From Escherichia coli (lineage in GTDB: Bacteria; Pseudomonadota; Gammaproteobacteria; Enterobacterales; Enterobacteriaceae): a DNA stretch of 64,000 nt. A program made the position numbers and the translations under genes. The DNA is taken from NCBI RefSeq assembly GCF_003790525.1, contig NZ_CP033635.1; one strand, written 5' to 3'. Positions 1-24,893 of this stretch are shown piece by piece. The notes below the pieces were generated by a model that did not search any database, was not told where the DNA came from, and worked only from the letters and a program-made list of their open reading frames with translations. Positions within the stretch are counted from its first letter, which is position 1; each line of letters begins with the position of its first letter.

Positions 1-99
1 ATGTATATGCAGGAATATCTTTATTCAATCAGAAATCATCGTTATACCGCCACGATGCTTCAGCATATTGCTGAAGATCGTGACGGGACGAGTCATTAA
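1..99 (+). CDS. Possible 3' end of a convergent LysR-type regulator gene (ygfI in K-12 gene order); partial, 5' end outside window
   Basis: Frame 1 is open from base 1 to a TAA at 97-99, overlapping the scpC stop on the other strand; K-12 gene order places ygfI convergent to scpC. Only 32 codons visible, so weak. Confidence 0.35.
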   Translation: MYMQEYLYSIRNHRYTATMLQHIAEDRDGTSH

Positions 100-1574
100 C
101 CCAGCATCGAGCCGGTTGCAATTAAATTACGGTGTAAATCAAAGACGTGGCTAAGATCGTGGTGAATATGTCCGCCGGGCGCATTTTCCAGATAGCGATG
201 CAGATAATCCCGATACATAGGATGTGCACAATTATCAATGATGGTGCGGGCGCGTTGAAGCGGGGAAAGACCACGCAGATCGGCGATCCCTTGTTCGGTG
301 ATGATCACTTTGACGCTGTGTTCGCTGTGATCAACATGGCTGCACATTGGCACGACGGTTGAGATCTTGCCTTCTTTAGCAATCGACGGGGCCATAAAGA
401 TCGACAGATACGCGTTGCGTTCAAAATCACCGCTGCCACCGATGCCGTTCATCAGATCGACCCCGGCTACGTGCGTTGAGTTGGCATGCCCGTAAATATC
501 AAACTCCAGGCCGACGTTCAGAGCGATGACGCCCAGACGACGGATGATTTCCGGGTTATTGGAAATTTCCTGCGGACGCAACACAATGCGGCTGGCAAAG
601 TAATCCATATTGTCGTAAATCTTGCGCAGGGAATCGGCCGAGATAGTCAGGCTGGAGGCGCTGGCCCCGCTGATTTTGCCCGTTTCCAGTAAATGCACCA
701 CCGATTCCTGTAGCACTTCCGAATACATCATGAACGGAGGAATTTCCGGGTTTTCCCCTAGTCGCGCCATGACTGCATTATTGATATTGCCCACGCCACT
801 TTGCAGCGGCAGAAATTCCGGCGGAATACGCCCATGCGCCATTTCCTGCAACAAGAACGTGACCACGTTATCGGCAATCTGCTGGCACATGGGATTTTGC
901 TTATCCAGCATATTACCGGCGTCAGGCAAGTTGGTTTCCACGACGGCGACAATCTTTTTCGGATCGATTTGCACATAGCGGGTACCGACGCGATCCATTG
1001 CATGGAAGATCGACACGCTATTGCGCCGCGGTGGCGCGCCAGGAATCACAATATCTGCCAGTTCTGCAACGCGCGGATCGTGATAGTGATTAAGTTCAAT
1101 GATCACTTTCTTCGCTCGCAGCAGCCAGGTCGGCGCATTACCGTTCCCGCTGGTTAACCAGACTCGACCATCCGGTGCCAGTGCCGATGCTTCAATGACG
1201 GCAACATCAATGTCGCCGAAGAAACCGTAATTGACCATTTGCGCCACTTCGCTCAAATGCAGGTCAACGAAACTCACCGCGCCCTGATTGATCTTTTTAC
1301 GTAAACCGGACGATGTTTGATATGGCGCACGCCAGGAAACAGCATCGGCGTCAGAAAGTACATCGTCAGCGGCGGCGCTGATTGACGCCCCCGTCAGCAG
1401 GCGAATTTGATACGGCTTTTTGGCCTCATGCTGTTCGTTAGCTCTGCGGGCAATCGCGGTGGGTAAGGCTTTCGGCGAACCCGCTGGGGTAAAGCCGCTA
1501 AATGCCACCATGTCGTTATGCTGGATAATTTCTGCCGCTTCATCGGCGGTCATCCTTGTCCACTGAGTTTCCAT
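96..1574 (-). CDS. scpC: Propionyl-CoA:succinate CoA transferase (acetyl-CoA hydrolase/transferase family)
   Basis: 492-aa ORF, METQWTRMTADEAAEII N-terminus; last gene of the sbm-argK-scpB-scpC arrangement. Confidence 0.9.
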   Translation of the reverse strand: METQWTRMTADEAAEIIQHNDMVAFSGFTPAGSPKALPTAIARRANEQHEAKKPYQIRLLTGASISAAADDVLSDADAVSWRAPYQTSSGLRKKINQGAVSFVDLHLSEVAQMVNYGFFGDIDVAVIEASALAPDGRVWLTSGNGNAPTWLLRAKKVIIELNHYHDPRVAELADIVIPGAPPRRNSVSIFHAMDRVGTRYVQIDPKKIVAVVETNLPDAGNMLDKQNPMCQQIADNVVTFLLQEMAHGRIPPEFLPLQSGVGNINNAVMARLGENPEIPPFMMYSEVLQESVVHLLETGKISGASASSLTISADSLRKIYDNMDYFASRIVLRPQEISNNPEIIRRLGVIALNVGLEFDIYGHANSTHVAGVDLMNGIGGSGDFERNAYLSIFMAPSIAKEGKISTVVPMCSHVDHSEHSVKVIITEQGIADLRGLSPLQRARTIIDNCAHPMYRDYLHRYLENAPGGHIHHDLSHVFDLHRNLIATGSMLG

Positions 1575-1597
1575 TTTAACTCCTTCGTTCGCAGGGA

Positions 1598-2383
1598 TTA
1601 ATGACCAACGAAATTAGGTTTACGTTTTTCGAGGAAAGCGTTCATCCCTTCCTGGTAATCTTCACTGTCATAAACCGCGCGGCGCATCCCCTGAATACGT
1701 TCAAATTCATCGGAGTTCATGGTGTGCGCTTCGCCCAGTACACGCAGCTCTTCTTTGATAACGGCAATGGCTAACGGTGCTTTCTCAGAGATGTGGTGCG
1801 CCATTTGTAAGGTGAAATCTTCCAGTTCTTCCACTTCCACAACATGGTTGAGGATGCCGACAGCCAGCGCGCGCTGGGCGGTGATTGGCGAAGCGGTAAA
1901 AATCAGCTCTTTGACAATGTGGAAGCCCGCGTCGCGGGTCAGATTGTGAATGCCGACCAGGTTATACGGGACACCGAGGTTTACAGGTGTCATTGAGAAG
2001 GTTGAGGTACTGGCGGCGATAATCAGATCGGAACTCATGATCATTTCAAATGCGCCACCCCAAACACTACCTTCCACCATCGAAATGATCGGTTTCGGGA
2101 ATTTTTGGATCATGCGGGTGATTTGACGCAACGGATCATCATAGGAGAGCGGATCGCGACCGCCAGACGGCAGTTCGTGAATATCGTGACCTGCGGAGAA
2201 GACTTTGGATCCACTCGGCGCGCGCAAAATGATACAGCGAATTTCCGGCCGGTTGAGATCGCTTAATGCCTGCATAAGATCATCAATAAAGACTTTACTT
2301 AAGGCATTAAGTTTGCGGCCATAGTTAAACTCAATGACCGCCACTTTGTTGATAGTGACAACGTTCACATACTGATAAGACAT
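1598..2383 (-). CDS. scpB: Methylmalonyl-CoA decarboxylase (crotonase/enoyl-CoA hydratase fold)
   Basis: ORF track gives 275 aa from an upstream ATG; trimmed to MSYQYVNVVTINKVAVIEF (261 aa), the start I recall for ScpB. Confidence 0.85.
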   Translation of the reverse strand: MSYQYVNVVTINKVAVIEFNYGRKLNALSKVFIDDLMQALSDLNRPEIRCIILRAPSGSKVFSAGHDIHELPSGGRDPLSYDDPLRQITRMIQKFPKPIISMVEGSVWGGAFEMIMSSDLIIAASTSTFSMTPVNLGVPYNLVGIHNLTRDAGFHIVKELIFTASPITAQRALAVGILNHVVEVEELEDFTLQMAHHISEKAPLAIAVIKEELRVLGEAHTMNSDEFERIQGMRRAVYDSEDYQEGMNAFLEKRKPNFVGH

Positions 2384-2393
2384 AAAAATTCCT

Positions 2394-3389
2394 TTAATCA
2401 AAATATTGCGTCTGGATAAATTCACTGAGCTGTCGCAGGCCGGTGCGCGGTGAGAGCGTATTGTTTTTGACCGCTAAAAGCGTCTGGCGGTAATAGCGAT
2501 CGAAATCTTCATTCGCGAACAGGTGATTCAGTACTTCTTCTTCGGTTTGTTTACGCAGCCATTCCACCGATTGTTGTTGCCGCACTTGTTGTAATCGACC
2601 ACTGGCAGTTAGCGCGGTTTTGAAGTCGATGATGGCGTGCCAGATCTCATCGATTCCACGTTTTTCCAGTGCGCTACAAGTCAGAACCCGTGGCTGCCAT
2701 TCGTCGTATTTACGTCGCAGAATATGCAGGGCACTCTCGTACATATGCTGGGCAATGGCGACATTGGTATGGTTATCGCCATCGTCTTTGTTGATAACGA
2801 TCAGATCTGCCACTTCCATCAGCCCCTTTTTAATGCCCTGCAGATCATCGCCGCCACCGGCAATTTGCAACGAGATAAAACAGTCCACCATGCGGGCGAC
2901 TTCCGTTTCCGACTGTCCGACGCCAACCGTTTCGACAATCACTACGTCATAACCCGCCGCTTCGCATAACAGCATTAATTCCCGCGCTCGCTGACTGGCA
3001 CCGCCCAGATGGCCGGAGGAGGGTACCGGGCGAATAAACGCCGCCTCGGCACGCGCAAGGTCATTCATGCGGGTTTTATCCCCGAGAATGCTACCGCCAG
3101 TGACCGGGCTGCTGGGATCGACCGCAATAACCGCAACCTTTAATCCCTCACGAATCAACAACATGCCAAAGGCTTCAAGAAAGGTACTTTTCCCCGCGCC
3201 GGGTGTGCCGGTAACACCCAGTCGCAGGGCGTTACCACAGAACGGCATAATGGCATCAAGCAGTTGCGTACTTAGCGCCTGATGACGCGGGTGACGGCTT
3301 TCCACCAGCGTCATGGCCTGGGCGAGCGTGGCACGCTCACCCTGACGTAAGCGGCGAATACTTTCTGCCAGCGTGGCTTCATTAATCAT
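2394..3389 (-). CDS. argK: MeaB/ArgK-type GTPase, methylmalonyl-CoA mutase accessory protein
   Basis: 331-aa ORF with P-loop [11 protein letters not shown]; positioned between scpA and scpB. Confidence 0.9.
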
Positions 3390-5526
3390 GATGCTGGCTT
3401 ATCAGATTCAGTACGTCGCGCACGCTGTCGAGCATAGGCGTACCTGGACCATAAATCGCCGCCACGCCGCGCTCCTGCAGGAAGGCGTAATCCTGCGGCG
3501 GAATGACGCCACCCGCGACCACGCAGATATCTTCGCGTCCCCATTTTTTCAGCGCTTCGACCAGTTCCGGGATCAGCGTTTTATGACCGGCAGCCAGTGA
3601 AGATGCGCCCACTACGTGAACGTCGTTTTCTACTGCCAGGCGGGCGATCTCTTCAGGTGTAGAGAACATCGGGCTTAAATCTACGTCGAAACCGAGATCG
3701 GAATAGGCGCTGGCGATCACTTTCGCGCCGCGATCGTGCCCATCCTGGCCCATTTTGGCGATCAGAATGCGCGGACGACGACCATTGTCGGCAAGGAACT
3801 GCTCCGTTTGCGCAACAATGGCATCGAACTCGGTGGCCGATTTCTCAGACTGATGATAGCTTTGCGCAATCACGCCGGTAACACACTGGCTTGGCACCAG
3901 ATAACGGTCGAAAGCGGCTTCCAGCGCATCGGAAATTTCACCCAGGGTGGCGCGAACGCGAGCGGCATTAACAGCGGCAGCCAGCAGGTTTTCGTTATGC
4001 TGTGCGGCGTGAGTCAGGGCGTTCAACGTGGCGGTTACGGCAGCATCATCACGGGTGGCGCGAATGCGTTCCAGTGAAGCAATCTGCTCGTTACGCACCA
4101 TCACGTTGTCGATCTCAAGTACATCGGTTTCGTCTTCGTGATCCAGTTTGTACTTGTTGACACCAACGATGACACGCTTGCCCTGGTCGATCAGCGACTG
4201 TTCGCGCGCGGAGGCCTCTTCGATCATTCGTTTTGGCAGACCTGCTTCGATCGCTTTCGCCATGCCACCGGCTTCGTCGATCTGTTGGATAATGGCTCTG
4301 GCTTGTTTGACGATTTGATCGGTCAGCGATTCAACGTAATAGGATCCGGCCAGTGGATCGACGGTGCGGCAGAGTTCTGATTCTTCCTGAATGATGATCT
4401 GGGTATTGCGGGCAATGCGTGCTGAGAAATCGGTAGGCAAACCAAGCGCTTCATCAAAGGCGTTGGTATGCAGTGACTGAGTACCGCCCAGCGTTGCAGC
4501 CAGTGCTTCAATGGTGGTGCGGATAACGTTGTTATATGGATCCTGTTCAGTCAGGCTCCAGCCTGAGGTCTGGCAGTGGGTACGCAGCGCCAGTGATTTC
4601 GGATCCTGTGCGCCAAATCCACTGACCGCTTCGCTCCATAAATAACGTGCCGCACGCAACATGGCGACGTTCATAAACAGATCCATGCCAATGCCGAAGA
4701 AGAACGACAGGCGAGGAGCGAAGTCATCAATTTTCAGCCCGGCGGAGATTGCTGCTTTGATGTACTCAATCCCATCAGCGAGCGTAAATGCTACCTGTTG
4801 CACGCAGTTGGCACCCGCTTCACCCATATGGTAACCGCTGATACTGATGGTATTAAATCGCGGCATGTTGCCGGAACACCAGGCGATGATGTCTGCGATA
4901 ATACGCATTGACGGTTTTGGCGGGTAAATATAGGTGTTGCGGCAAAGATACTCTTTGAGGATATCGTTTTGAATGGTGCCGGTCAGTTTATCGGGTGTAA
5001 CACCTTGCTCTTCTGCGGCGACAATATAAAACGCCAGTACTGGTAGTACTGCGCCATTCATGGTCATCGAAACCGACATTTTATCCAGCGGGATCTGGTC
5101 GAACAGGACTTTCATATCTTCCACGGTGTCGATAGCAACGCCCGCTTTGCCGACGTCGCCCGCCACGCGCGGGTTATCGGAGTCGTAGCCTCGGTGGGTG
5201 GCAAGGTCAAACGCAACGGAAAGACCTTTTTGCCCGGCGGCCAGGTTACGGCGATAAAAAGCGTTGGACTCTTTTGCTGTTGAAAAACCAGCATACTGAC
5301 GGATGGTCCACGGTTGGGCGGTATACATAGTGGCACGCGGGCCACGAACGTAGGGGGGCAAACCAGGAAGGGTACCTGTCACCTCCAGATTATCGAGATC
5401 GGCTTCGGTATACAGCGGCTTGATGGCGATCCCTTCCGCGGTTTGCTGAACCAGCGAGTCGACAGTTTTCTCCCGACGGCTCAATTCCTTGTTGGCAAGC
5501 TGTTGCCACTCCTGCACGTTAGACAT
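3382..5526 (-). CDS. scpA: Methylmalonyl-CoA mutase (sleeping beauty mutase), B12-dependent
   Basis: ORF track 721 aa; trimmed to [14 protein letters not shown] (714 aa). The 3' end overlaps the argK start by 8 nt. Confidence 0.88.
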
Positions 5527-5689
5527 TATTTGCTCCGTAAAACGCAATCAAAATGAGGGTATTTGCGCTTACGGTGAGCTTTTTACGTGGGTTTGTCGCC
5601 AGCAAAAAAAATGCATTCAGACGTCGTTTTTTGCCGCCTGAGATTTGTCTATTTTGTGATGTGATTCAAGGAATACAAAAAGAAGTGAG

Positions 5690-5716
5690 GATAACGCCTG
5701 ATATGTGCTATCAGGC
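5690..5716 (-). terminator. REP-like hairpin downstream of argP, possible terminator
   Basis: gcctgata-tgtgc-tatcaggc inverted repeat at 5696-5716, just 3' of the argP stop; no clean U-tract. Confidence 0.3.
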
Positions 5717-5729
5717 ATTATTTGATGGA

Positions 5730-6623
5730 TTAATCCTGACGAAGGACTTTGTGACCATAATCGAGCAACGCATCAGTGACTTTACGCATCATGCGGCTTT
5801 CAGGAGCAAAGCGGTGCCAGTAGAGCATCCGGCGTTGAAATAGCCCCGGCGTTAAGTCAATCAGTTCACCGCTGGCCAGTTCTTTCTCGATTTGCAGGTG
5901 CGGGATCATACAGCAGGTGGTGCCCTGGCGAGCAAGTTGTACGAACGCTTCTGAAGAATTAACGATATGGCACGGTACGCTGCCTGGGGGCAGATCGAAG
6001 TTTTGCTGCAAAAAGGCCTGGTGCATATCGTCAAGATGGTCAAAGGCGACCACAGGTGCTTTCAATAATGCCGAACGCGTTACGCCGTTAGGGAAATATT
6101 TTTCGGCAAACGGTTTTGAGCTGACGAACAGATAGTCAAGCGCACCGAGCTTATCGACAAGGCAACTCGGCAGCGCCTGATGTTGAATACTCACCGCGCC
6201 GACCACTTCGCCGCGGCGCAGACGTTCCTGAGTGCGGGTTTCATCTTCTACCTGCAAGTTGAGGCGGATAGGCGAATCAGCCAACACAGGAGCCAGCGCC
6301 GGAAGCAACCACGTCGCCAGACTGTCGGCGTTGACCGCCAGTGAAAGCAGCAGCGGAGTCGAACCGGTTTGTTCATCGCCCAGCCACTCTTCTTCCAGCA
6401 ACTCCACCTGGCGTAGCAGTGCCAGCAGTTTTTGCCCTTGTTCTGTCGGGCGCGGCGGTACGGTACGCACCAACAGCGGCTGCCCGAACATATTTTCCAG
6501 TTGCTTAATGCGCTGTGAGACGGCTGATTGTGTAATGCACAGCTTTTGTGCCGCGCGCTCAAATCCTCGTTCACGTATCACCGCATCCAGTGCCTGTAAT
6601 GTTCTGTAGTCCGGGCGTTTCAT
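5730..6623 (-). CDS. argP: LysR-family transcriptional regulator ArgP (IciA)
   Basis: ORF track 319 aa; trimmed to [28 protein letters not shown] (297 aa). HTH motif [12 protein letters not shown]. Confidence 0.85.
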
Positions 6624-7005
6624 TGCTGTTGTCTGCTCCTGGTAAATGCTTTTTCCTGCACTATGACACAATTTTGTGTCAGGTTGCATATACCGAAGCC
6701 GTCGGCGGGTAACATTTGTATCAATGGTTAAACGCGCAGCTTAAAAGATCAGGGATTTGCGCTATTGCATTTCGCTTAGCGACTTCGCGCCCTGGTTATG
6801 TTGAATGGCGTGGCGTTATTGCCTCTGTTCGCACCGTGGAGCGGCATACCCAGACCGTTGTATGCTTTATTTGCCGGGCGAAAGGGGATGCCCGCCATTG
6901 CGCGATATTTTATGGATGAGTTAACCACGCGGCTTGCCAACGGGGTCTGAATCGCTTTTTTTGTATATAATGCGTGTGAAATTTCATACCACAGGCGAAA
7001 CGATC

Positions 7006-7665
7006 ATGACCCAGGATGAATTGAAAAAAGCAGTAGGATGGGCGGCACTTCAGTATGTTCAGCCCGGCACCATTGTTGGTGTAGGTACAGGTTCCACCGC
7101 CGCACACTTTATTGACGCGCTCGGTACAATGAAAGGCCAGATTGAAGGGGCCGTTTCCAGTTCAGATGCTTCCACTGAAAAACTGAAAAGCCTCGGCATT
7201 CACGTTTTTGATCTCAACGAAGTCGACAGCCTTGGCATCTACGTTGATGGCGCAGATGAAATCAACGGCCACATGCAAATGATCAAAGGCGGCGGTGCGG
7301 CGCTGACCCGTGAAAAAATCATTGCTTCGGTTGCGGAAAAATTTATCTGTATTGCAGACGCTTCTAAGCAGGTTGATATTCTGGGCAAATTCCCGCTGCC
7401 AGTAGAAGTTATCCCGATGGCACGTAGTGCAGTGGCGCGCCAGCTGGTGAAACTGGGCGGTCGTCCGGAATACCGTCAGGGCGTGGTGACCGATAACGGC
7501 AACGTGATCCTCGACGTCCACGGCATGGAAATCCTTGACCCGATAGCGATGGAAAACGCCATAAATGCGATTCCTGGCGTGGTGACTGTTGGCTTGTTTG
7601 CTAACCGTGGCGCGGACGTTGCGCTGATTGGCACACCTGACGGTGTCAAAACCATTGTGAAATGA
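7006..7665 (+). CDS. rpiA: Ribose-5-phosphate isomerase A
   Basis: ORF track 243 aa; trimmed to [18 protein letters not shown] (219 aa). Divergent from argP. Confidence 0.88.
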
Positions 7666-7669
7666 TCTG

Positions 7670-7688
7670 ACGGGGGAACCTCCCCCGT
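7670..7688 (+). terminator. GC-rich hairpin immediately after the rpiA stop
   Basis: acgggggaacctcccccgt perfect palindrome 5 nt after the stop; followed by an A-run rather than a U-tract, so terminator function is uncertain. Confidence 0.3.
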
Positions 7689-7920
7689 TAAAAAAATTCT
7701 CTTCATTAAATTTGGTGACATGTGTCACGTTTTTACCTGGCTATTGTCGATTGCTCTAAATAAACCCTCTAAACCAGCATATTCATCCAAGAAATACCTT
7801 TGCGTGATATTTCCTCAACATCGCGACGCAAACGTTCATATTGCCGCAATATTATTTTTTGATATGTTGAAAGGCGGATGCAAATCCGCACACAACATTT
7901 CAAAAGACAGGATTGGGTAA

Positions 7921-9153
7921 ATGGCAAAGGTATCGCTGGAGAAAGACAAGATTAAGTTTCTGCTGGTAGAAGGCGTGCACCAAAAGGCGCTTGAAAGCCT
8001 TCGTGCAGCGGGTTACACCAACATCGAATTTCACAAAGGCGCGCTGGATGATGAACAATTAAAAGAATCCATCCGCGATGCCCACTTCATCGGCCTGCGA
8101 TCCCGTACCCATCTGACTGAAGACGTGATCAACGCCGCAGAAAAACTGGTCGCTATTGGCTGTTTCTGTATCGGAACAAACCAGGTTGATCTGGATGCGG
8201 CGGCAAAACGCGGTATCCCGGTATTTAACGCACCGTTCTCAAATACGCGCTCTGTTGCGGAGCTGGTGATTGGCGAACTGCTGCTGCTATTGCGCGGCGT
8301 GCCGGAAGCCAATGCTAAAGCGCACCGTGGCGTGTGGAACAAACTGGCGGCGGGTTCTTTTGAAGCGCGCGGCAAAAAGCTGGGTATCATCGGCTATGGT
8401 CATATTGGTACTCAATTGGGCATTCTGGCTGAATCGCTGGGAATGTATGTTTACTTTTATGATATTGAAAACAAACTGCCGCTGGGCAACGCCACTCAGG
8501 TACAGCATCTTTCTGACCTGCTGAATATGAGCGATGTGGTGAGTCTGCATGTACCAGAGAATCCGTCCACCAAAAATATGATGAGTGCGAAAGAGATTTC
8601 ACTGATGAAGCCCGGCTCGCTGCTGATTAATGCTTCGCGCGGTACTGTGGTGGATATTCCGGCGCTGTGTGACGCGCTGGCGAGCAAACATCTGGCGGGG
8701 GCGGCAATCGACGTATTCCCGACGGAACCGGCAACCAATAGCGATCCATTTACCTCTCCGCTGTGTGAATTCGACAACGTCCTTCTGACGCCACACATTG
8801 GCGGTTCGACTCAGGAAGCGCAGGAGAATATCGGCCTGGAAGTTGCGGGTAAATTGATCAAGTATTCTGACAATGGCTCAACGCTCTCTGCGGTGAACTT
8901 CCCGGAAGTCTCGCTGCCACTGCACGGTGGGCGTCGTCTGATGCACATCCACGAAAACCGTCCGGGCGTGCTAACTGCGCTCAACAAAATTTTTGCCGAG
9001 CAGGGCGTCAACATCGCCGCGCAATATCTGCAAACTTCCGCCCAGATGGGTTATGTAGTTATTGATATTGAAGCCGACGAAGACGTTGCCGAAAAAGCTC
9101 TGCAGGCAATGAAAGCTATTCCGGGTACCATTCGCGCCCGTCTGCTGTACTAA
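7921..9153 (+). CDS. serA: D-3-phosphoglycerate dehydrogenase
   Basis: 410-aa ORF, MAKVSLEKDKIKFLLVEGVH N-terminus, NAD-binding GIIGYGHIG motif. Confidence 0.93.
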   Translation: MAKVSLEKDKIKFLLVEGVHQKALESLRAAGYTNIEFHKGALDDEQLKESIRDAHFIGLRSRTHLTEDVINAAEKLVAIGCFCIGTNQVDLDAAAKRGIPVFNAPFSNTRSVAELVIGELLLLLRGVPEANAKAHRGVWNKLAAGSFEARGKKLGIIGYGHIGTQLGILAESLGMYVYFYDIENKLPLGNATQVQHLSDLLNMSDVVSLHVPENPSTKNMMSAKEISLMKPGSLLINASRGTVVDIPALCDALASKHLAGAAIDVFPTEPATNSDPFTSPLCEFDNVLLTPHIGGSTQEAQENIGLEVAGKLIKYSDNGSTLSAVNFPEVSLPLHGGRRLMHIHENRPGVLTALNKIFAEQGVNIAAQYLQTSAQMGYVVIDIEADEDVAEKALQAMKAIPGTIRARLLY

Positions 9154-9172
9154 TTCCCCTTCTCTGAAAATT

Positions 9173-9206
9173 AACGGGCAGGTCACTGACTTGCCCGTTT
9201 TTTTAT
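9173..9206 (+). terminator. Rho-independent terminator of serA
   Basis: acgggcaggtcactgacttgcccgt hairpin followed by tttttttat. Confidence 0.6.
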
Positions 9207-9339
9207 CCCTTCTCCACACCGTTGCCGCATTGCGCATTCTACTTTGCGAGTCTGCTCCAGAAAATAAATCAAAGTCAGATCAATGCGTTGTGTTTATTTA
9301 ATGGGGATTTACGATGGCAGGGCAGCATGGGGCTGTAAC

Positions 9340-9481
9340 GGTAAAGCCCTCACCGAAGCGAGGGCTTGAAGGAGAAGGGTTATGATGCGACTTGTCATCA
9401 TACTGATTGTACTGTTACTCATAAGTTTCCCAGCTTATTAACAGTCAGTCTCAGGGGAGGAGTCATCCTCCCTTACCCTTA
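9340..9481 (-). ncRNA. sibC: SibC-like antisense sRNA (antitoxin of the ibsC type I toxin-antitoxin pair); ends approximate
   Basis: Fully antisense to the ibsC mini-ORF; a sigma-70-like promoter on the minus strand (TTGACA, 17-nt spacer, TAATTT, plus-strand 9488-9516) and a minus-strand hairpin plus U-run near 9346-9365. K-12 places SibC (RygC) between serA and fau. Confidence 0.45.
9382..9441 (+). CDS. ibsC: Ibs-family type I toxin, 19-aa hydrophobic peptide
   Basis: ATG ATG CGA ... TAT TAA encodes MMRLVIILIVLLLISFPAY, preceded by SD gaaggaga; matches the Ibs toxin family pattern. Too short for the ORF track. Confidence 0.6.
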   Translation: MMRLVIILIVLLLISFPAY

Positions 9482-9487
9482 CTCACT

Positions 9488-9516
9488 AAATTAGGTTAAA
9501 GAATCAACGATGTCAA
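9488..9516 (-). promoter_or_regulatory. Candidate sigma-70 promoter for sibC
   Basis: Minus strand reads TTGACA-17 nt-TAATTT; predicted transcription start near plus-strand 9481. Confidence 0.35.
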
Positions 9517-9541
9517 TCAGGGCGATGCAGGTGTGTCGCCC

Positions 9542-10090
9542 TTACCACTCCCAGACTTTCGACGGTGTAACCACCGCAGGAAGTGGGATATCCCACTCTT
9601 CAACGGGAAGTTTTTCCACCAACTGACAATCATGCGCATAACCCACCGGTTGCATTTTATAGTGCTGCCAGTTTTGTAAGGTCCGATCATAAAAACCACC
9701 GCCCATTCCCAGGCGCTGGCCGTACTCATCAAAGGCGACCAGCGGTGTGATCAACACGTCTAATCGGGAAAGGGGTAGCACGTCACGCACATCCAGTTTT
9801 GGCTCATGGATCTTCAACCTGTTCATCACCAGTTCGCTTTGCGGATGGTAATTCAGGAACAGCAAGTTACCGGCACTAAAGGGATGCAAAACTGGAAGAT
9901 ATACGCGCTTACCGGCGCGCCAGAGTTGTTCTATGAGTGGCTGGGTGTCGAGTTCGCCATCAAAAGAGAGGAATACAGCGACCGTATGTGCCATCACCAC
10001 CGGGGGATAAGTCATCATCCGGGTAGCGGCTTGTTGACCCATTTCCTGCTGTTGTTCCGGCGTTAACGCACGACGACGTTGCCGAATCAT
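9542..10090 (-). CDS. fau: 5-formyltetrahydrofolate cyclo-ligase
   Basis: ORF track 248 aa runs into the 6S RNA gene; trimmed to MIRQRRRALTPEQQQEMGQQ (182 aa). Confidence 0.85.
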   Translation of the reverse strand: MIRQRRRALTPEQQQEMGQQAATRMMTYPPVVMAHTVAVFLSFDGELDTQPLIEQLWRAGKRVYLPVLHPFSAGNLLFLNYHPQSELVMNRLKIHEPKLDVRDVLPLSRLDVLITPLVAFDEYGQRLGMGGGFYDRTLQNWQHYKMQPVGYAHDCQLVEKLPVEEWDIPLPAVVTPSKVWEW

Positions 10091-10162
10091 TTTGCGGATT
10101 TCTTGTCGGGATAATGTCAGTGGAAGTTCTGGTAGTTGCGTCATGGCTGGTGCCAGATAAGA

Positions 10163-10348
10163 AGGGAATCTCCGAGATGCCGCCGCAGGCTGTAACCCTT
10201 GAACCCTTGGTTCAAGGTGAATGTGTCGTCGCAGTTTTAAGGCTTCTCGGACGGACCGAGCATGCTCACCAACCGCGGAGCGCCACATTCTTGTGGTATG
10301 AAATATCGGCTCAGGGGACTGGCCCGCTTGCGAACATCTCAGAGAAAT
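10163..10348 (-). ncRNA. ssrS: 6S RNA (RNA polymerase sigma-70 holoenzyme regulator)
   Basis: Reverse complement reads AUUUCUCUGAGAUGUUCGCAAGCGGGCCAGUCCCCUGAGCC...GGCAUCUCGGAGAUUCCCU, which matches E. coli 6S RNA as I recall it; lies between zapA and fau. Ends within a few nt. Confidence 0.9.
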
Positions 10349-10389
10349 TTTGTCTTCACGGTTACTCTACCACAGTAAACCGAAAAGTG

Positions 10390-10785
<396 letters not shown>

Positions 10786-10886
10786 CTATAGCTACCCTGA
10801 TGAGAAGAGACAAGCCCTTTTCTGGTCCACCAGGGCCCAAAGTGGTAGCATATCATGAATATTCCTCCCTTTGACGACGAATGCTT

Positions 10887-11465
10887 ATGTCTATACAGAA
10901 CGAAATGCCTGGTTACAACGAAATGAACCAGTATCTGAACCAACAAGGGACGGGTCTGACCCCTGCTGAGATGCATGGTTTAATCAGTGGGATGATATGT
11001 GGCGGTAACGATGACAGCTCATGGCTGCCGCTACTTCACGACCTGACGAACGAAGGCATGGCTTTCGGTCATGAGCTGGCACAGGCACTGCGTAAAATGC
11101 ACTCTGCCACCAGCGATGCCCTGCAGGATGACGGCTTCCTTTTTCAGCTTTATCTGCCTGATGGCGATGATGTCAGCGTTTTCGATCGGGCTGATGCGCT
11201 GGCAGGTTGGGTCAATCACTTCCTGCTTGGTCTTGGCGTTACGCAACCGAAGCTGGACAAAGTGACCGGAGAAACCGGTGAAGCCATCGACGATCTGCGT
11301 AACATCGCGCAGCTGGGCTACGACGAAGACGAAGATCAGGAAGAGCTTGAAATGTCGCTTGAAGAGATCATCGAATACGTTCGTGTTGCCGCGTTGTTAT
11401 GCCACGACACCTTTACTCATCCGCAACCGACCGCGCCAGAAGTACAAAAACCGACTCTACACTAA
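10887..11465 (+). CDS. ygfB: UPF0149 family protein YgfB
   Basis: ORF track 194 aa; start set at the second ATG ([15 protein letters not shown], 192 aa). First gene of ygfB-pepP-ubiH-ubiI. Confidence 0.8.
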
Positions 11466-11490
11466 AAACAAAAAACGTAAGGAGAGTGTT

Positions 11491-12816
11491 ATGAGTGAGA
11501 TATCCCGGCAAGAGTTTCAGCGTCGCCGTCAGGCCCTGGTGGAGCAAATGCAACCCGGCAGCGCCGCGCTGATTTTTGCTGCACCAGAAGTAACACGTAG
11601 CGCCGACAGCGAATACCCCTATCGTCAGAACAGTGACTTCTGGTACTTCACCGGCTTTAACGAACCGGAAGCGGTGCTGGTGCTGATTAAAAGCGACGAC
11701 ACTCATAACCACAGCGTTTTGTTTAACCGCGTTCGCGACCTGACGGCAGAGATCTGGTTTGGTCGTCGCTTAGGCCAGGATGCCGCGCCAGAGAAACTGG
11801 GCGTTGACCGCGCACTGGCATTCAGTGAAATCAATCAGCAACTTTATCAACTACTTAACGGCCTGGATGTGGTTTACCATGCTCAGGGCGAATATGCATA
11901 TGCTGATGAAATCGTGAACAGCGCGCTGGAAAAGTTGCGTAAAGGCTCGCGACAGAATCTCACTGCCCCGGCTACGATGATCGACTGGCGTCCCATTGTT
12001 CATGAAATGCGCCTGTTCAAATCCCCAGAAGAGATTGCCGTACTTCGCCGCGCGGGGGAAATTACCGCCCTGGCGCATACCCGGGCGATGGAAAAATGCC
12101 GTCCGGGAATGTTCGAGTACCATCTGGAAGGCGAAATTCACCACGAATTTAACCGCCACGGTGCGCGCTATCCGTCCTATAACACCATTGTCGGCAGCGG
12201 TGAAAACGGCTGCATTCTGCACTACACCGAAAACGAGTGTGAAATGCGCGACGGTGACCTGGTGTTGATTGACGCGGGTTGTGAATACAAAGGTTACGCG
12301 GGCGATATTACCCGCACCTTCCCGGTCAACGGCAAATTCACCCAAGCCCAGCGTGAAATCTACGACATTGTGCTGGAGTCTCTTGAAACCAGCCTGCGGC
12401 TGTATCGTCCGGGAACTTCCATTCAGGAAGTCACTGGTGAAGTGGTGCGCATCATGGTTAGCGGCCTGGTAAAACTCGGCATCCTGAAAGGTGATGTTGA
12501 TGAACTGATCGCTCAGAACGCCCATCGTCCTTTCTTTATGCATGGCCTTAGCCACTGGTTAGGACTGGATGTCCATGACGTTGGCGTTTATGGCCAGGAT
12601 CGCTCGCGCATTCTGGAACCGGGCATGGTACTGACCGTAGAGCCGGGGCTGTATATTGCGCCGGATGCAGAAGTGCCAGAACAATATCGCGGTATCGGCA
12701 TTCGTATTGAAGACGACATTGTGATTACCGAAACCGGCAACGAAAACCTCACCGCCAGCGTGGTGAAAAAGCCGGAAGAAATCGAAGCGTTGATGGCTGC
12801 TGCGAGAAAGCAATGA
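11491..12816 (+). CDS. pepP: Xaa-Pro aminopeptidase (aminopeptidase P II)
   Basis: ORF track 512 aa is an in-frame upstream extension; true start MSEISRQEFQRRRQALVEQ (441 aa) preceded by SD aaggagag. Confidence 0.9.
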   Translation: MSEISRQEFQRRRQALVEQMQPGSAALIFAAPEVTRSADSEYPYRQNSDFWYFTGFNEPEAVLVLIKSDDTHNHSVLFNRVRDLTAEIWFGRRLGQDAAPEKLGVDRALAFSEINQQLYQLLNGLDVVYHAQGEYAYADEIVNSALEKLRKGSRQNLTAPATMIDWRPIVHEMRLFKSPEEIAVLRRAGEITALAHTRAMEKCRPGMFEYHLEGEIHHEFNRHGARYPSYNTIVGSGENGCILHYTENECEMRDGDLVLIDAGCEYKGYAGDITRTFPVNGKFTQAQREIYDIVLESLETSLRLYRPGTSIQEVTGEVVRIMVSGLVKLGILKGDVDELIAQNAHRPFFMHGLSHWLGLDVHDVGVYGQDRSRILEPGMVLTVEPGLYIAPDAEVPEQYRGIGIRIEDDIVITETGNENLTASVVKKPEEIEALMAAARKQ

Positions 12817-13991
12817 GCGTAATCATCGTCGGTGGCGGCATGGCGGGCGCGACGCTGGCGCTGGCTATTTCCCGGTTAAGTCACGGGGCGCTGCCGGTAC
12901 ATTTGATTGAAGCGACTGCGCCAGAGTCACATGCTCATCCGGGCTTTGATGGACGGGCTATTGCGCTGGCGGCGGGCACTTGTCAGCAACTGGCGCGCAT
13001 CGGCGTCTGGCAATCTCTGGCTGATTGCGCAACCGCCATCACCAGCGTGCATGTCAGCGATCGTGGTCATGCCGGATTCGTCACCCTCGCCGCAGAAGAT
13101 TACCAACTGGCGGCGCTGGGACAGGTTGTCGAATTACACAATGTCGGGCAACGGCTGTTTGCATTGCTGCGCAAAGCACCTGGTGTAACGCTGCATTGCC
13201 CTGATCGCGTGGCTAACGTTGCCCGTGCTCAGAGTCACGTTGAAGTGACGCTGGAGAGTGGCGAGACGCTGACGGGCTGCGTGCTGGTAGCCGCTGATGG
13301 CACCCATTCAGCGTTAGCCACTGTGTGCGGCGTTGACTGGCAGCAGGAGCCTTACGAACAACTGGCCGTGATTGCCAACGTTGCGACTTCCGTTGCGCAC
13401 GAAGGCCGCGCTTTTGAACGCTTCACGAAACATGGCCCGCTGGCGATGTTGCCGATGTCTGACGGACGCTGTTCGCTGGTCTGGTGTCATCCACTGGAAC
13501 GGCGCGAAGAGGTGCTGTCGTGGAGCGACGAGAAGTTTTGCCGTGAACTCCAGTCTGCCTTTGGCTGGCGACTGGGGCAAATTACCCACGCCGGTAAACG
13601 CAGTGCTTATCCGCTGGCATTAACCCGCGCCGCCAGACCGATTACCCATCGCACTGTGCTGGTGGGCAATGCGGCGCAAACTCTGCACCCCATCGCCGGG
13701 CAAGGGTTCAACCTCGGTATGCGTGATGTGATGAGCCTTGCAGAAACCCTGACTCAGGCGCAGGAGCGCGGAGAAGACATGGGTGATTACGGCGTATTGT
13801 GCCGTTATCAGCAGCGTCGACAGAGCGATCGCGAAGTAACCATCGGCGTCACGGACAGCCTTGTACATCTTTTTGCCAACCGTTGGACCCCGCTGGTTGT
13901 CGGGCGCAACATCGGGCTGATGACGATGGAATTATTTACCCCGGCACGCGATGTGCTGGCGCAGCGCACCCTCGGTTGGGTGGCGCGTTGA
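12813..13991 (+). CDS. ubiH: 2-octaprenyl-6-methoxyphenol hydroxylase (FAD-dependent monooxygenase)
   Basis: 392-aa ORF with FAD fold VIIVGGGMAGATLA; ATGA start/stop overlap with pepP. Confidence 0.9.
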   Translation: MSVIIVGGGMAGATLALAISRLSHGALPVHLIEATAPESHAHPGFDGRAIALAAGTCQQLARIGVWQSLADCATAITSVHVSDRGHAGFVTLAAEDYQLAALGQVVELHNVGQRLFALLRKAPGVTLHCPDRVANVARAQSHVEVTLESGETLTGCVLVAADGTHSALATVCGVDWQQEPYEQLAVIANVATSVAHEGRAFERFTKHGPLAMLPMSDGRCSLVWCHPLERREEVLSWSDEKFCRELQSAFGWRLGQITHAGKRSAYPLALTRAARPITHRTVLVGNAAQTLHPIAGQGFNLGMRDVMSLAETLTQAQERGEDMGDYGVLCRYQQRRQSDREVTIGVTDSLVHLFANRWTPLVVGRNIGLMTMELFTPARDVLAQRTLGWVAR

Positions 13992-14013
13992 AGGCGGTTT
14001 TAAGGAATAAACA

Positions 14014-15216
14014 ATGCAAAGTGTTGATGTAGCCATTGTTGGTGGCGGCATGGTGGGGCTGGCGGTTGCCTGCGGCTTACAGGGGAGCGGCTTACGCGTT
14101 GCTGTACTGGAGCAGCGCGTACCGGAACCTCTGGCGGCGGATGCACCACCACAACTGCGCGTTTCGGCTATCAATGCCGCCAGCGAAAAATTACTCACCC
14201 GTCTTGGCGTCTGGCAGGACATTCTCTCTCGTAGGGCCAGCTGTTATCACGGTATGGAAGTGTGGGACAAAGACAGTTTTGGTCACATCTCGTTTGACGA
14301 TCAAAGCATGGGCTATAGCCATCTTGGGCATATCGTTGAAAACTCAGTGATTCACTACGCGCTGTGGAACAAAGCGCAGCAGTCGTCAGATATCACTCTG
14401 TTGGCCCCCGCAGAATTACAGCAGGTCGCCTGGGGAGAAAATGAAACCTTCCTGACGTTGAAAGATGGCAGTATGTTAACGGCGCGTCTGGTGATTGGCG
14501 CGGACGGCGCTAATTCCTGGTTGCGCAACAAAGCAGATATTCCGCTGACTTTCTGGGATTATCAGCATCACGCGCTGGTAGCGACCATTCGCACGGAAGA
14601 ACCGCATGATGCGGTGGCGCGGCAGGTTTTCCATGGCGAAGGCATTCTGGCCTTTTTACCGCTTAGCGATCCGCATCTTTGCTCGATTGTCTGGTCACTG
14701 TCGTCAGAGGAAGCGCAGCGGATGCAGCAGGCAAGTGAAGACGAATTTAATCGCGCGTTAAATATCGCTTTTGATAATCGCCTGGGCTTATGCAAGGTTG
14801 AGAGCGCGCGTCAGGTGTTCCCACTGACGGGGCGTTATGCGCGCCAGTTTGCCGCGCACCGTCTGGCGCTGGTGGGCGACGCCGCGCATACCATTCACCC
14901 GCTGGCGGGGCAGGGGGTAAATCTTGGCTTTATGGATGCTGCAGAGCTGATTGCTGAACTGAAACGGTTGCATCGTCAGGGTAAAGACATCGGGCAGTAC
15001 ATTTATCTGCGTCGCTATGAGAGTAGCCGCAAGCACAGTTCGGCGCTGATGCTGGCTGGTATGCAGGGATTCCGTGATCTGTTTTCCGGTACCAATCCGG
15101 CGAAAAAACTGCTGCGTGATATTGGTTTGAAACTGGCCGACACGCTTCCTGGCGTTAAACCACAACTCATCCGCCAGGCAATGGGATTAAACGATTTGCC
15201 TGAATGGCTGCGTTAA
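14014..15216 (+). CDS. ubiI: 2-octaprenylphenol hydroxylase (FAD-dependent monooxygenase, VisC)
   Basis: 400-aa paralogue of ubiH, VAIVGGGMVGLAVA. Confidence 0.9.
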   Translation: MQSVDVAIVGGGMVGLAVACGLQGSGLRVAVLEQRVPEPLAADAPPQLRVSAINAASEKLLTRLGVWQDILSRRASCYHGMEVWDKDSFGHISFDDQSMGYSHLGHIVENSVIHYALWNKAQQSSDITLLAPAELQQVAWGENETFLTLKDGSMLTARLVIGADGANSWLRNKADIPLTFWDYQHHALVATIRTEEPHDAVARQVFHGEGILAFLPLSDPHLCSIVWSLSSEEAQRMQQASEDEFNRALNIAFDNRLGLCKVESARQVFPLTGRYARQFAAHRLALVGDAAHTIHPLAGQGVNLGFMDAAELIAELKRLHRQGKDIGQYIYLRRYESSRKHSSALMLAGMQGFRDLFSGTNPAKKLLRDIGLKLADTLPGVKPQLIRQAMGLNDLPEWLR

Positions 15217-15258
15217 AAATTTCTCTTCTGTTGTTTATTTGATACCCATCACACTTTC

Positions 15259-15288
15259 ATCTCCCGGTTTTTTCGCCGGGAGATTTTC
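15259..15288 (+). terminator. Rho-independent terminator after ubiI
   Basis: tctcccgg-ttttttcg-ccgggaga hairpin followed by tttt. Confidence 0.5.
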
Positions 15289-15299
15289 CTCATTTGAAA

Positions 15300-15662
15300 T
15301 AAACTAATTTCACCTCCGTTTTCGCATTATATTTTCTAATGCTATGATTTTTTGATTTAGTGTTTTTTGACATTTTTTTAGTTCTTAATATTGCCTTATT
15401 CAAATTAACTTTCTAATGGCATCATCTTTATATAGAAACTAGAGTGTTTTTTGGTTTTTTATTCTGTCGCGATTTTGGCGTTTTTTAACCATAAGCTAAT
15501 GTGATGATCAATTTTACCTTATGGTTAACAGTCTGTTTCGGTGGTAAGTTCAGGCAAAAGAGAACGATTGCGTTGGGGACCGGGAGTGGCTCCGATGCTG
15601 GGTTTCGTGGTGATAATTTCACCATGAAAAGTTGTCAGCCCCGCTTATTCAATGAGGACAAG
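15300..15662 (+). promoter_or_regulatory. gcvTHP promoter and upstream control region
   Basis: About 360 bp AT-rich non-coding DNA upstream of gcvT; in E. coli this region carries the gcv promoter and GcvA/Lrp/PurR/CRP sites (established knowledge; individual sites not resolved here). Confidence 0.4.
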
Positions 15663-16757
15663 ATGGCACAACAGACTCCTTTGTACGAACAACACACGCT
15701 TTGCGGCGCTCGCATGGTGGATTTCCACGGCTGGATGATGCCGCTGCATTACGGTTCGCAAATCGACGAACATCATGCGGTACGTACCGATGCCGGAATG
15801 TTTGATGTGTCACATATGACCATCGTCGATCTCCGCGGCAGCCGCACCCGGGAGTTTCTGCGTTATCTGCTGGCGAACGATGTGGCGAAGCTCACCAAAA
15901 GCGGCAAAGCCCTTTACTCGGGGATGTTGAATGCCTCTGGCGGTGTGATAGATGACCTCATCGTCTACTACTTTACTGAAGATTTCTTCCGCCTCGTTGT
16001 TAACTCCGCCACCCGCGAAAAAGACCTCTCCTGGATTACCCAACACGCTGAACCTTTCGGCATCGAAATTACCGTTCGTGATGACCTTTCCATGATCGCC
16101 GTACAAGGGCCGAATGCGCAGGCAAAAGCTGCCACACTGTTTAATGATGCTCAGCGTCAGGCGGTGGAAGGGATGAAACCGTTCTTTGGCGTGCAGGCGG
16201 GCGATCTGTTTATTGCCACCACTGGTTATACCGGTGAAGCGGGCTATGAAATTGCGCTGCCCAATGAAAAAGCGGCCGATTTCTGGCGTGCGCTGGTGGA
16301 AGCGGGTGTTAAGCCATGTGGCTTGGGCGCGCGTGACACGCTGCGTCTGGAAGCGGGCATGAATCTTTATGGTCAGGAGATGGACGAAACTATTTCTCCT
16401 TTAGCCGCCAACATGGGCTGGACTATCGCCTGGGAACCGGCAGATCGTGACTTTATCGGTCGTGAAGCCCTGGAAGTGCAGCGTGAGCATGGTACAGAAA
16501 AACTGGTTGGTCTGGTGATGACCGAAAAAGGCGTGCTGCGTAATGAACTGCCGGTACGCTTTACCGATGCGCAGGGCAACCAGCATGAAGGCATTATCAC
16601 CAGCGGTACTTTCTCCCCGACGCTGGGTTACAGCATTGCGCTGGCGCGCGTGCCGGAAGGTATTGGCGAAACGGCGATTGTGCAAATTCGCAACCGTGAA
16701 ATGCCGGTTAAAGTGACAAAACCTGTTTTTGTGCGTAACGGCAAAGCCGTCGCGTGA
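15663..16757 (+). CDS. gcvT: Glycine cleavage system T protein (aminomethyltransferase)
   Basis: ORF track 418 aa is an upstream extension; start set at [24 protein letters not shown] (364 aa). Confidence 0.9.
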
Positions 16758-16780
16758 TTTACTTTTTTGGAGATTGATTG

Positions 16781-17170
16781 ATGAGCAACGTACCAGCAGA
16801 ACTGAAATACAGCAAAGAACACGAATGGCTGCGTAAAGAAGCCGACGGCACTTACACCGTTGGTATTACCGAACATGCTCAGGAGCTGTTAGGCGATATG
16901 GTGTTTGTTGACCTGCCGGAAGTGGGCGCAACGGTTAGCGCGGGCGATGACTGCGCGGTTGCCGAATCAGTAAAAGCGGCGTCAGACATTTATGCGCCAG
17001 TAAGCGGTGAAATCGTGGCGGTAAACGACGCACTGAGCGATTCCCCGGAACTGGTGAACAGCGAACCGTATGCAGGTGGCTGGATCTTTAAAATCAAAGC
17101 CAGCGATGAAAGCGAACTGGAATCACTGCTGGATGCGACCGCATACGAAGCATTGTTAGAAGACGAGTAA
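16781..17170 (+). CDS. gcvH: Glycine cleavage system H protein (lipoyl carrier)
   Basis: [20 protein letters not shown], 129 aa; the ORF track started 3 nt earlier at a TTG. Confidence 0.9.
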
Positions 17171-17287
17171 CGGCTTTATTCCTCTTCTGCGGGAGAGGAT
17201 CAGGGTGAGGAAATTTACACCTCACCCTCACTCTCTTCGCAAGGAGAGAGGTTCACAATTCACTGCACGTTTCAGGAACCATCGCTC

Positions 17288-20161: not shown

Positions 20162-20183
20162 TTTACTGATTCGACTATCTTCT

Positions 20184-20206
20184 AAAGGCGCTTCGGCGCC
20201 TTTTTC
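20184..20206 (+). terminator. Rho-independent terminator of gcvTHP
   Basis: aaaggcgc-ttcg-gcgccttt hairpin followed by a T-run. Confidence 0.6.
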
Positions 20207-20326
20207 GCTTGTTAATAAAGTGCGCTTTGTGTGTTTCGGCTGAGGCGTAATATAAAATATTGCGAGCTCAATATATTAAAAGAGTGCCAGGCCTGATGAG
20301 CGGAGCACATCAGGCACATCGGCTAA

Positions 20327-21787
<1,461 letters not shown>

Positions 21788-21804
21788 TTACAGGAAATAG
21801 TACC

Positions 21805-22116
21805 ATGCAGCCAAACGACATCACTTTTTTTCAACGTTTCCAGGATGACATTCTGGCTGGGCGTAAAACCATCACCATCCGCGACGAGTCTGAATCGCAC
21901 TTCAAAACGGGTGATGTGCTTCGTGTCGGACGGTTTGAAGATGACGGTTATTTTTGCACGATTGAAGTTACCGCAACCTCAACCGTAACGCTGGATACGC
22001 TGACGGAAAAACATGCAGAGCAGGAAAATATGACCCTGACTGAACTGAAAAAGGTCATTGCCGACATCTATCCCGACCAGACACAGTTTTATGTGATTGA
22101 ATTTAAATGCCTTTAA
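21805..22116 (+). CDS. yqfB: ASCH-domain protein YqfB (N4-acetylcytidine amidohydrolase family)
   Basis: 103-aa [31 protein letters not shown]. Confidence 0.85.
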
Positions 22117-22204
22117 ATTGAACTCACGCCTGTTAGTTGAAATTTCGCATTTAATTTCATGATTTTTCAGAGATTAATCTCAAATCTGAATTTATTTTAG
22201 CTAA

Positions 22205-22939
<735 letters not shown>

Positions 22940-22952
22940 TTGGTGTTCCTTT

Positions 22953-23009: not shown

Positions 23010-23015
23010 AGAGAT

Positions 23016-24226: not shown

Positions 24227-24893
<667 letters not shown>

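What the first reader, a model, noticed from the sequence alone, without database searches (positions are those of the whole stretch)
9300..9520. Type I toxin-antitoxin locus ibsC/sibC in the serA-fau intergenic region
A 19-codon ORF with a strong SD encodes a highly hydrophobic Ibs-type peptide; the opposite strand has a near-consensus sigma-70 promoter (TTGACA-17-TAATTT) and a terminator-like hairpin positioned to give a roughly 140-nt fully antisense RNA. The six-frame track instead shows a 71-aa minus-strand ORF here, which I consider spurious.
Basis: partly seen in the sequence, partly recalled or inferred. Interest (0 to 1): 0.5.

Follow-up and report, generated by a model that had tools for sequence, protein, structure and literature searches.

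The report
Known E. coli ibsC/sibC toxin-antitoxin locus

Summary
The window is an E. coli chromosome (rpiA-serA-[locus]-fau-ssrS-zapA). Rfam's SIB_RNA model (RF00113) hits 9366..9516 (-) at 136.5 bits, against a gathering score of 56 (E 5e-28).

Alignment to K-12 MG1655, where sibC (b4446) and ibsC (b4665) are annotated, places SibC at 9340..9480 (-), 141 nt. It places ibsC at 9382..9441 (+), peptide MMRLVIILIVLLLISFPAY. RefSeq genomes with an identical serA-fau intergenic region annotate this ORF as "type I toxin-antitoxin system toxin IbsC" (WP_071525914.1).

The promoter (TTGACA-17-TAATTT), the SD (AAGGAG, 7 nt before ATG) and a 10-bp UUCG hairpin are all present.

Two corrections:
- The -10 matches the consensus at only 3 of 6 positions.
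- The "71-aa minus ORF" lies at 9517..9732. It is an out-of-frame shadow ORF inside fau, and only 4 of its bases fall in the stated range.

One nuance: the window differs from K-12 at three adjacent bases (codon 17, Pro not Ser). These are SibC nt 49-51, the specificity trinucleotide in the loop of target-recognition domain 1 (TRD1). This is the majority allele, found in 2790 of 5426 complete E. coli genomes against 2165 for the K-12 allele.

Already known; low interest.

The parts
9340..9480 (-). SibC antitoxin RNA, 141 nt (5' end A at 9480, 3' end at 9340)
   Evidence: Rfam RF00113 hit 9366..9516, 136.5 bits. The ends are taken from alignment to K-12 sibC b4446. Fold -55.3 kcal/mol, z -4.9.
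9488..9516 (-). sibC promoter: -35 TTGACA (9516..9511), 17-nt spacer, -10 TAATTT (9493..9488); it ends 7 nt before the SibC +1
   Evidence: Read. Only site of this pattern in the window, with 0.42 expected by chance. Not called by the consensus scan because the -10 matches only 3 of 6. A sigma-S RNA polymerase ChIP-seq peak was assigned to the sibC promoter in K-12 (PMC4447067).
9344..9367 (-). SibC 3' hairpin (P7): 10-bp stem, UUCG loop, short U tail
   Evidence: Compensatory changes in this stem among Sib paralogs. Called the sibC termination hairpin in PMC2943612.
9413..9435 (-). TRD1 (target-recognition domain 1) of SibC, nt +46..+68, the P5 stem-loop; it pairs within the ibsC ORF
   Evidence: Defined in K-12 by Han et al. 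2010 (PMC2943612) and mapped here through the alignment. The loop is predicted unpaired in both alleles.
9430..9432 (.). Allelic trinucleotide: CCA here (Pro17; SibC U49G50G51) against AGC in K-12 (Ser17; G49C50U51)
   Evidence: The 43-mer carrying the window allele is in 2790 of 5426 genomes, the K-12 one in 2165.
9366..9382 (-). TRD2 (target-recognition domain 2) of SibC, nt +99..+115, the J1/7 single strand; it pairs with the ibsC SD and start region
   Evidence: PMC2943612, mapped through. Identical to K-12.
9382..9441 (+). ibsC coding sequence: 19 codons plus stop, MMRLVIILIVLLLISFPAY
   Evidence: Annotated ibsC / WP_071525914.1 in genomes with an identical intergenic region. Ibs HMM E 1.6e-12.
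9369..9374 (+). ibsC Shine-Dalgarno AAGGAG, 7 nt before the ATG
   Evidence: Read. Predicted single-stranded in the ibsC mRNA fold. G50, G51 and G53 of the K-12 mRNA, at these positions, are protected by SibC (PMC2943612).
9322..9480 (+). ibsC mRNA, about 159 nt (inferred extent)
   Evidence: Inferred from Han et al. 2010: a 159-nt mRNA with an 18-nt 5' overhang beyond the SibC 3' end, and G50/G51/G53 equal to the SD guanines. Not measured in this strain.
9288..9315 (+). Candidate ibsC promoter: TTGTGT (9288..9293), 16-nt spacer, TACGAT (9310..9315), ending 7 nt before the inferred start at 9322
   Evidence: My inference from the sequence and the start-site position. A -10-like NANNAT hexamer aligns at the same place in the five K-12 paralogs. 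The published figure showing the promoter elements could not be seen.

Best explanation
The locus is the E. coli chromosomal type I toxin-antitoxin pair ibsC/sibC.

The + strand gives a short mRNA of about 159 nt, from about 9322 to about 9480. It encodes the 19-residue hydrophobic peptide IbsC. The - strand gives the 141-nt RNA SibC (9480 to 9340), which is complementary to the whole functional part of that mRNA.

SibC first contacts the mRNA through two exposed elements that work independently:
- the P5 loop (TRD1), which pairs inside the ORF;
- the J1/7 single strand (TRD2), which pairs with the Shine-Dalgarno and start region.

Pairing then spreads into the flanking sequence, translation initiation is blocked and the mRNA is degraded. 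If IbsC is made in excess, it inserts into the inner membrane, depolarises it and stops growth.

Shown here: the identity, the position and the intactness of every sequence element. Taken from K-12 experiments on an allele that differs at 5 bases within the transcribed region: transcription, repression, mRNA decay and toxicity. Unknown in the literature I read: when, in nature, the toxin escapes repression.
For: - Rfam SIB_RNA at 136.5 bits against a gathering score of 56.
- Same serA-fau position as annotated K-12 sibC b4446 and ibsC b4665, with only 5 differing bases inside the transcribed region.
- The same intergenic DNA, at 100% identity, is annotated ibsC in many RefSeq genomes. The region is present at 80% or more coverage in 5421 of 5426 complete E. 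coli genomes.
- The peptide matches an Ibs HMM built without IbsC at E 1.6e-12, and it is the only hit in the window.
- The predicted SibC fold reproduces the stems and the P1 closing helix. The TRD1 trinucleotide lies in the P5 loop and TRD2 is unpaired.
- 10 of 44 consensus pairs carry compensatory changes among Sib paralogs.
- Mechanism: PMC2943612, and PMC8309996 for depolarisation, loss of viability and psp induction.
Against: - Nothing here shows transcription, repression or toxicity in the strain the window comes from.
- The Pro17 peptide has not, in the papers I could read, been tested for toxicity. Residues 6-19 of IbsC matter for toxicity. However, the K-12 paralogs IbsB and IbsE carry Pro at the same position.
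- NCBIfam gave no HMM hit for the peptide padded to 23 residues.
- The -10 hexamer is weak by consensus, and the 3' hairpin lacks a proper U-tract.
Confidence: 0.95

Rival explanations
1. The locus is a decayed, non-functional relic of ibsC/sibC in this lineage. It would be recognisable by homology but no longer make a toxic peptide, for example because Ser17Pro inactivates it.
For: Three adjacent base changes alter residue 17. That residue lies in the C-terminal stretch reported as needed for toxicity (PMC8309996).
Against: - The ORF, SD, both promoters, the hairpins and TRD2 are intact, and all but the trinucleotide, two hairpin-loop bases and one promoter-spacer base are identical to K-12.
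- The Pro17 allele is the commonest in E. coli, in 2790 of 5426 genomes.
- IbsB (SFPAY) and IbsE (SFPTY) have Pro at the same place, and IbsE is annotated as a toxic peptide in K-12.
Confidence: 0.04
2. One of the longer ORFs is the real gene and the RNA/peptide reading is secondary. The candidates are the 37-aa minus ORF 9309..9422, the 42-aa plus ORF 9366..9494, and the 71-aa minus ORF 9517..9732.
For: These ORFs exist mechanically.
Against: - None is annotated in K-12 or in the PGAP-annotated strain 203740.
- The 71-aa ORF lies out of frame inside fau.
- The 37-aa and 42-aa ORFs lie wholly (42-aa) or mostly (37-aa, bases 9340..9422) within the SibC/ibsC transcript pair, which the covariance model, the peptide HMM and the published experiments explain fully.
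Confidence: 0.01

Closest known systems
E. coli K-12 MG1655 sibC (b4446) / ibsC (b4665)
   Same: Same serA-fau position and orientation, and same lengths (141-nt RNA, 19-codon ORF). Identical SD, TRD2, -35 and -10 hexamers, P1, P6 and P7. The predicted fold is identical.
   Different: - Codon 17 is CCA (Pro) here and AGC (Ser) in K-12. This equals SibC nt 49-51, UGG against GCU, in the TRD1 loop.
- Two bases differ in the loop of the P2 hairpin (9463-9464).
- One base differs in the sibC promoter spacer (9497).
Paralogs SibA/IbsA, SibB/IbsB, SibD/IbsD and SibE/IbsE of E. coli
   Same: Same family: the peptide pattern MM(K/R)..(V/L)II....SF..Y; the same RNA architecture; and complete antisense overlap of the ORF and SD.
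   Different: They lie at other chromosomal sites (yegL-mdtA and yqiK-hldE) and as tandem pairs, whereas sibC is single. Their TRD1 and TRD2 sequences differ. Against ibsD, the window allele has 1 mismatch in a 23-nt stretch around the TRD1 target, where K-12 SibC has 3.
Other chromosomal type I toxin-antitoxin pairs of E. coli (ldr/rdl, hok/sok, tisB/istR-1, shoB/ohsC)
   Same: A small hydrophobic membrane toxin repressed by an antisense RNA (PMC2943612; PMC8309996).
   Different: In ibs/sib the antitoxin covers the entire ORF and the translation start region. [quoted passage not shown]

Membership tests
Sib RNA family (Rfam RF00113, SIB_RNA) | Scores above the curated gathering threshold of the covariance model | tested here: met
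   136.5 bits against 56, E 5.4e-28, full model 1-147 matched, 9366..9516 (-). The model includes the promoter and stops before the 3' hairpin.
Sib RNA family (Rfam RF00113, SIB_RNA) | Multi-stem fold: P1 closing helix, P2, P5 and P6 hairpins, 3' hairpin P7, with the P5 loop and J1/7 exposed | tested here: met
   The minimum-free-energy fold shows all of these; z = -4.9. 10 of 44 consensus pairs have compensatory changes among 6 Sib sequences; the sample is small.
Sib RNA family (Rfam RF00113, SIB_RNA) | Encoded opposite an ibs ORF and covering the whole ORF and its ribosome-binding site | tested here: met
   SibC 9340..9480 (-) encloses SD 9369..9374 and CDS 9382..9441 (+).
Sib RNA family (Rfam RF00113, SIB_RNA) | Expressed as an RNA of about 140 nt that represses its cognate ibs mRNA | not testable with these tools
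   Shown for K-12 SibC (PMC2943612; PMC4447067 Northern blots). Here only the promoter and hairpin sequences can be shown.
sibC/ibsC ortholog (as opposed to another paralog) | Located between serA and fau (ygfA), and most similar to K-12 SibC | tested here: met
   Gene order rpiA-serA-ibsC-fau-ssrS-zapA. The 388-bp intergenic region differs from K-12 at 10 positions and aligns without gaps. Paralogs are much more divergent.
Ibs toxin peptides | An 18-19-residue, strongly hydrophobic peptide related in sequence to IbsA-E | tested here: met
   19 aa, 15 hydrophobic, GRAVY 2.4. An HMM of IbsA, B, D and E gives E 1.6e-12, the only hit among 2704 segments. The identical product is named IbsC by RefSeq.
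Ibs toxin peptides | Match to a curated protein-family HMM | tested here: inconclusive
   NCBIfam returned no family for the ORF padded to 23 residues. The Pfam scan needs at least 30 residues and could not be run. A 19-residue peptide is near the limit of these tools.
Ibs toxin peptides | Overexpression depolarises the membrane and stops growth | not testable with these tools
   Reported for K-12 IbsC (Ser17) (PMC8309996; PMC2943612). The Pro17 allele was not tested in anything I could read.

The most novel reading that the evidence does not exclude
The majority E. coli allele of SibC (U49G50G51) differs from K-12 exactly at the trinucleotide that Han et al. mutated (to UGC) to redirect SibC onto ibsD. 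It leaves a single mismatch to ibsD across 23 nt of the TRD1 target. In most E. coli, SibC and SibD might therefore cross-repress each other's toxins. The strict cognate specificity described for K-12 would then be a peculiarity of the laboratory strain's allele.
Probability: 0.12. Interest if true: 0.3.

Novelty: already known. Interest (0 to 1): 0.08.

Why it matters
It matters little as a discovery. The locus has been described since 2008, is in Rfam and is annotated in RefSeq.

The practical value is as a check. A reader working from raw sequence correctly picked out a 19-codon gene and its antisense RNA, which ORF callers often miss (Fozo et al. 2010, PMC2887945, note that Ibs genes were often missed).

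The one point worth a specialist's glance is the natural variation at codon 17. It sits on the specificity-determining loop of the antitoxin, and K-12 carries the minority allele.

Tried and rejected
- NCBIfam scan of the peptide, padded upstream to 23 residues to meet the tool's minimum: no hit. I replaced it with my own HMM of the K-12 paralogs.
- Consensus promoter/terminator scan of 9100..9650: it found neither the sibC promoter nor the SibC hairpin, only the serA terminator at 9173..9199. Its thresholds exclude a 3-of-6 -10 hexamer and a short U tail, so this is not evidence against them.
- The primary papers Fozo et al. 2008 (PMC2597788) and Mok et al. 2010 (PMC3009890) are not held. Their results are cited only as reported by PMC2943612 and PMC8309996.
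- Is the intergenic region unusually conserved? It is 100% identical to strain 203740, while the window as a whole is 98.2% identical. Rejected: the surrounding 7 kb is a low-divergence block with 0-7 differences per 500 bp, so zero differences in 388 bp is unremarkable.
- Gene conversion from a paralog as the source of the CCA codon: no K-12 or strain 203740 paralog has the same trinucleotide with the same flanks. IbsB has CCC, IbsE CCG, IbsD GCA. Not supported.
- I did not locate sibA/sibB in a strain carrying the window allele. I did not scan other species, because the family's distribution is already published (PMC2887945).

Full report
**What is there.**
The window is E. coli chromosome. 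Its first 25 kb are 100% identical to several complete genomes (PEC403, e1-39, CUVET17-1418 and others). The whole window is collinear with strain 203740 at about 98.2% identity. The local gene order is rpiA, serA, the locus, fau (ygfA), ssrS, zapA, ygfB, pepP. The finding lies in the 388-bp serA-fau intergenic region (9154..9541).

**Checking the observation: plus strand.**
An ORF at 9382..9441 encodes MMRLVIILIVLLLISFPAY, 19 codons plus TAA.
- 15 of 19 residues are hydrophobic and GRAVY is 2.4.
- AAGGAG lies at 9369..9374, 7 nt before the first ATG.

**Checking the observation: minus strand.**
- The -35 and the spacing are perfect. The -10 matches TATAAT only at T1, A2 and T6, so the consensus scanner did not report it.
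- The looser pattern TTGACA-N17-TANNNT occurs once in the window, with 0.42 expected by chance. The promoter motif alone proves nothing. Its value is that it ends 7 nt before the SibC 5' end.
- A 10-bp stem with a UUCG loop lies at 9367..9344 and is followed by UUUACC. It is a hairpin with a poor U tail.
It sits beside the locus, inside fau (CDS 9542..10144 in the PGAP annotation) and in a different frame. The minus ORF actually inside the locus is 37 aa (9309..9422).

**Identification.**
- The Rfam scan of the whole window gave two hits above gathering score: 6S RNA, and SIB_RNA (RF00113) at 9366..9516 (-). The latter scored 136.5 bits against 56, E 5.4e-28, with the full model matched. That model starts at the -35 hexamer and ends before the 3' hairpin.
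- K-12 MG1655 annotates sibC (b4446, 141 nt) and ibsC (b4665) in the same intergenic region.
- The two intergenic regions align without gaps. This places SibC at 9480..9340 (-) and ibsC at 9382..9441 (+).
- Megablast of the intergenic region finds it, at 80% or more coverage, in 5421 of 5426 complete E. coli genomes. Many are 100% identical and carry the annotation "type I toxin-antitoxin system toxin IbsC", WP_071525914.1.
- An HMM built from K-12 IbsA, B, D and E (IbsC left out) was searched against all 2704 stop-to-stop segments of at least 12 residues in the window. It finds only this ORF (E 1.6e-12; next best 0.6).
- SibC folds at -55.3 kcal/mol, z = -4.9, and none of 200 shuffles folds as well.
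- The consensus fold of the window RNA with the five K-12 Sib RNAs keeps 44 pairs, 10 of them with compensatory changes. The sample is small.

**How it works (from K-12 experiments, mapped onto the window).**
Han et al. 2010 (PMC2943612) report the following.
- Sib RNAs are about 140 nt and span the entire functional ibs mRNA, including the translation initiation region and the ORF.
- SibC has two independent target-recognition domains. TRD1 (+46..+68, P5 loop) pairs within the ORF. TRD2 (+99..+115, J1/7, needing the P1 stem) pairs with the initiation region.
- These first contacts spread into partial duplexes, and repression results in degradation of the ibsC mRNA.
- The ibsC mRNA is about 159 nt and extends 18 nt beyond the SibC 3' end.

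In window coordinates these features map as follows.

| Feature | Window coordinates |
|---|---|
| TRD1 | 9413..9435 |
| TRD2 | 9366..9382 |
| ibsC mRNA (inferred) | about 9322..9480 |

The mapping checks out: their protected G50, G51 and G53 fall on the SD guanines 9371, 9372 and 9374.

I infer a promoter for that start, without seeing their figure: TTGTGT (9288..9293), 16 nt, TACGAT (9310..9315). A NANNAT hexamer aligns at the same place in all five K-12 paralogs.

Overproduced IbsC depolarises the membrane within minutes, reduces viability and induces the psp operon (PMC8309996). In K-12 a sigma-S RNA polymerase ChIP-seq peak was assigned to the sibC promoter. SibC levels depend on rpoS at 28 C but not in the same direction at 37 C (PMC4447067). 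"Sigma-70 promoter" is therefore probably not the whole story.

**The one difference from the textbook locus.**
Within the transcribed region the window differs from K-12 at five bases.
- Two are in the P2 hairpin loop (9463-9464).
- Three are adjacent, at 9430..9432. They turn codon 17 from AGC (Ser) to CCA (Pro), and SibC G49C50U51 into U49G50G51.

That trinucleotide is the one Han et al. changed (to UGC) to give SibC the TRD1 of SibD and make it repress ibsD. It lies in the P5 loop of SibC and in the matching loop of the mRNA, and the predicted folds of both alleles are the same. Because the pair is encoded in cis, complementarity is kept automatically.

Allele-specific 43-mers find the window allele in 2790 of 5426 complete genomes and the K-12 allele in 2165. 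The window therefore carries the commoner form.

IbsB and IbsE have Pro at the same position, which argues against loss of toxicity. Around the TRD1 target, the window allele has one mismatch to ibsD in 23 nt, where K-12 has three. ibsD and ibsE are identical in K-12 and in strain 203740. Whether this loosens cognate specificity is untested. I give it low probability.

**Verdict.**
This is the already known ibsC/sibC locus in its commonest natural allele. It is correct but ordinary.

Noticed in passing
window 10165..10348 (-): 6S RNA gene ssrS: Rfam RF00013 at 139.8 bits, full length. The mechanical ORF list gives a 248-aa ORF for fau (9542..10288) that runs across part of ssrS. The annotated fau CDS is shorter: 9542..10144 in the PGAP annotation, and 549 nt in K-12.
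   Followed up: partly
window 29090..29105 (+): The prfB programmed +1 frameshift site, AGGGGGTATCTTTGAC (internal SD plus CUU UGA C), is present exactly once. prfB is annotated as joined from two pieces with a programmed frameshift in strain 203740.
   Followed up: partly
window 24239..24505 (+) and 24486..24893 (+): sdhE and ygfX lie in the window as overlapping ORFs. From memory, this pair has been described as the CptB/CptA antitoxin/toxin pair, which would make it a second toxin-antitoxin-type pair in the window.
   Followed up: no
window about 52702 (between arcC/yqeA and yqeB): Relative to strain 203740 the window lacks about 180 bp that look like REP/BIME-type palindromic repeats. In 203740 that segment is bounded by two copies of a 28-nt hairpin, TGGCCGGATGGTATTACCCA(C/T)CCGGCC. 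The window has a single copy.
   Followed up: partly
window 1..25000: Only 19 of 5426 complete E. coli genomes are 99% or more identical to the first 25 kb, and seven listed strains are essentially identical. The window therefore comes from a sparsely sampled lineage, although its ibsC/sibC allele is the common one.
   Followed up: no
window 9173..9199 (+): Canonical intrinsic terminator of serA: a 12-bp stem followed by TTTTTTT. It is the only terminator-like site the scan found in 9100..9650.
   Followed up: no
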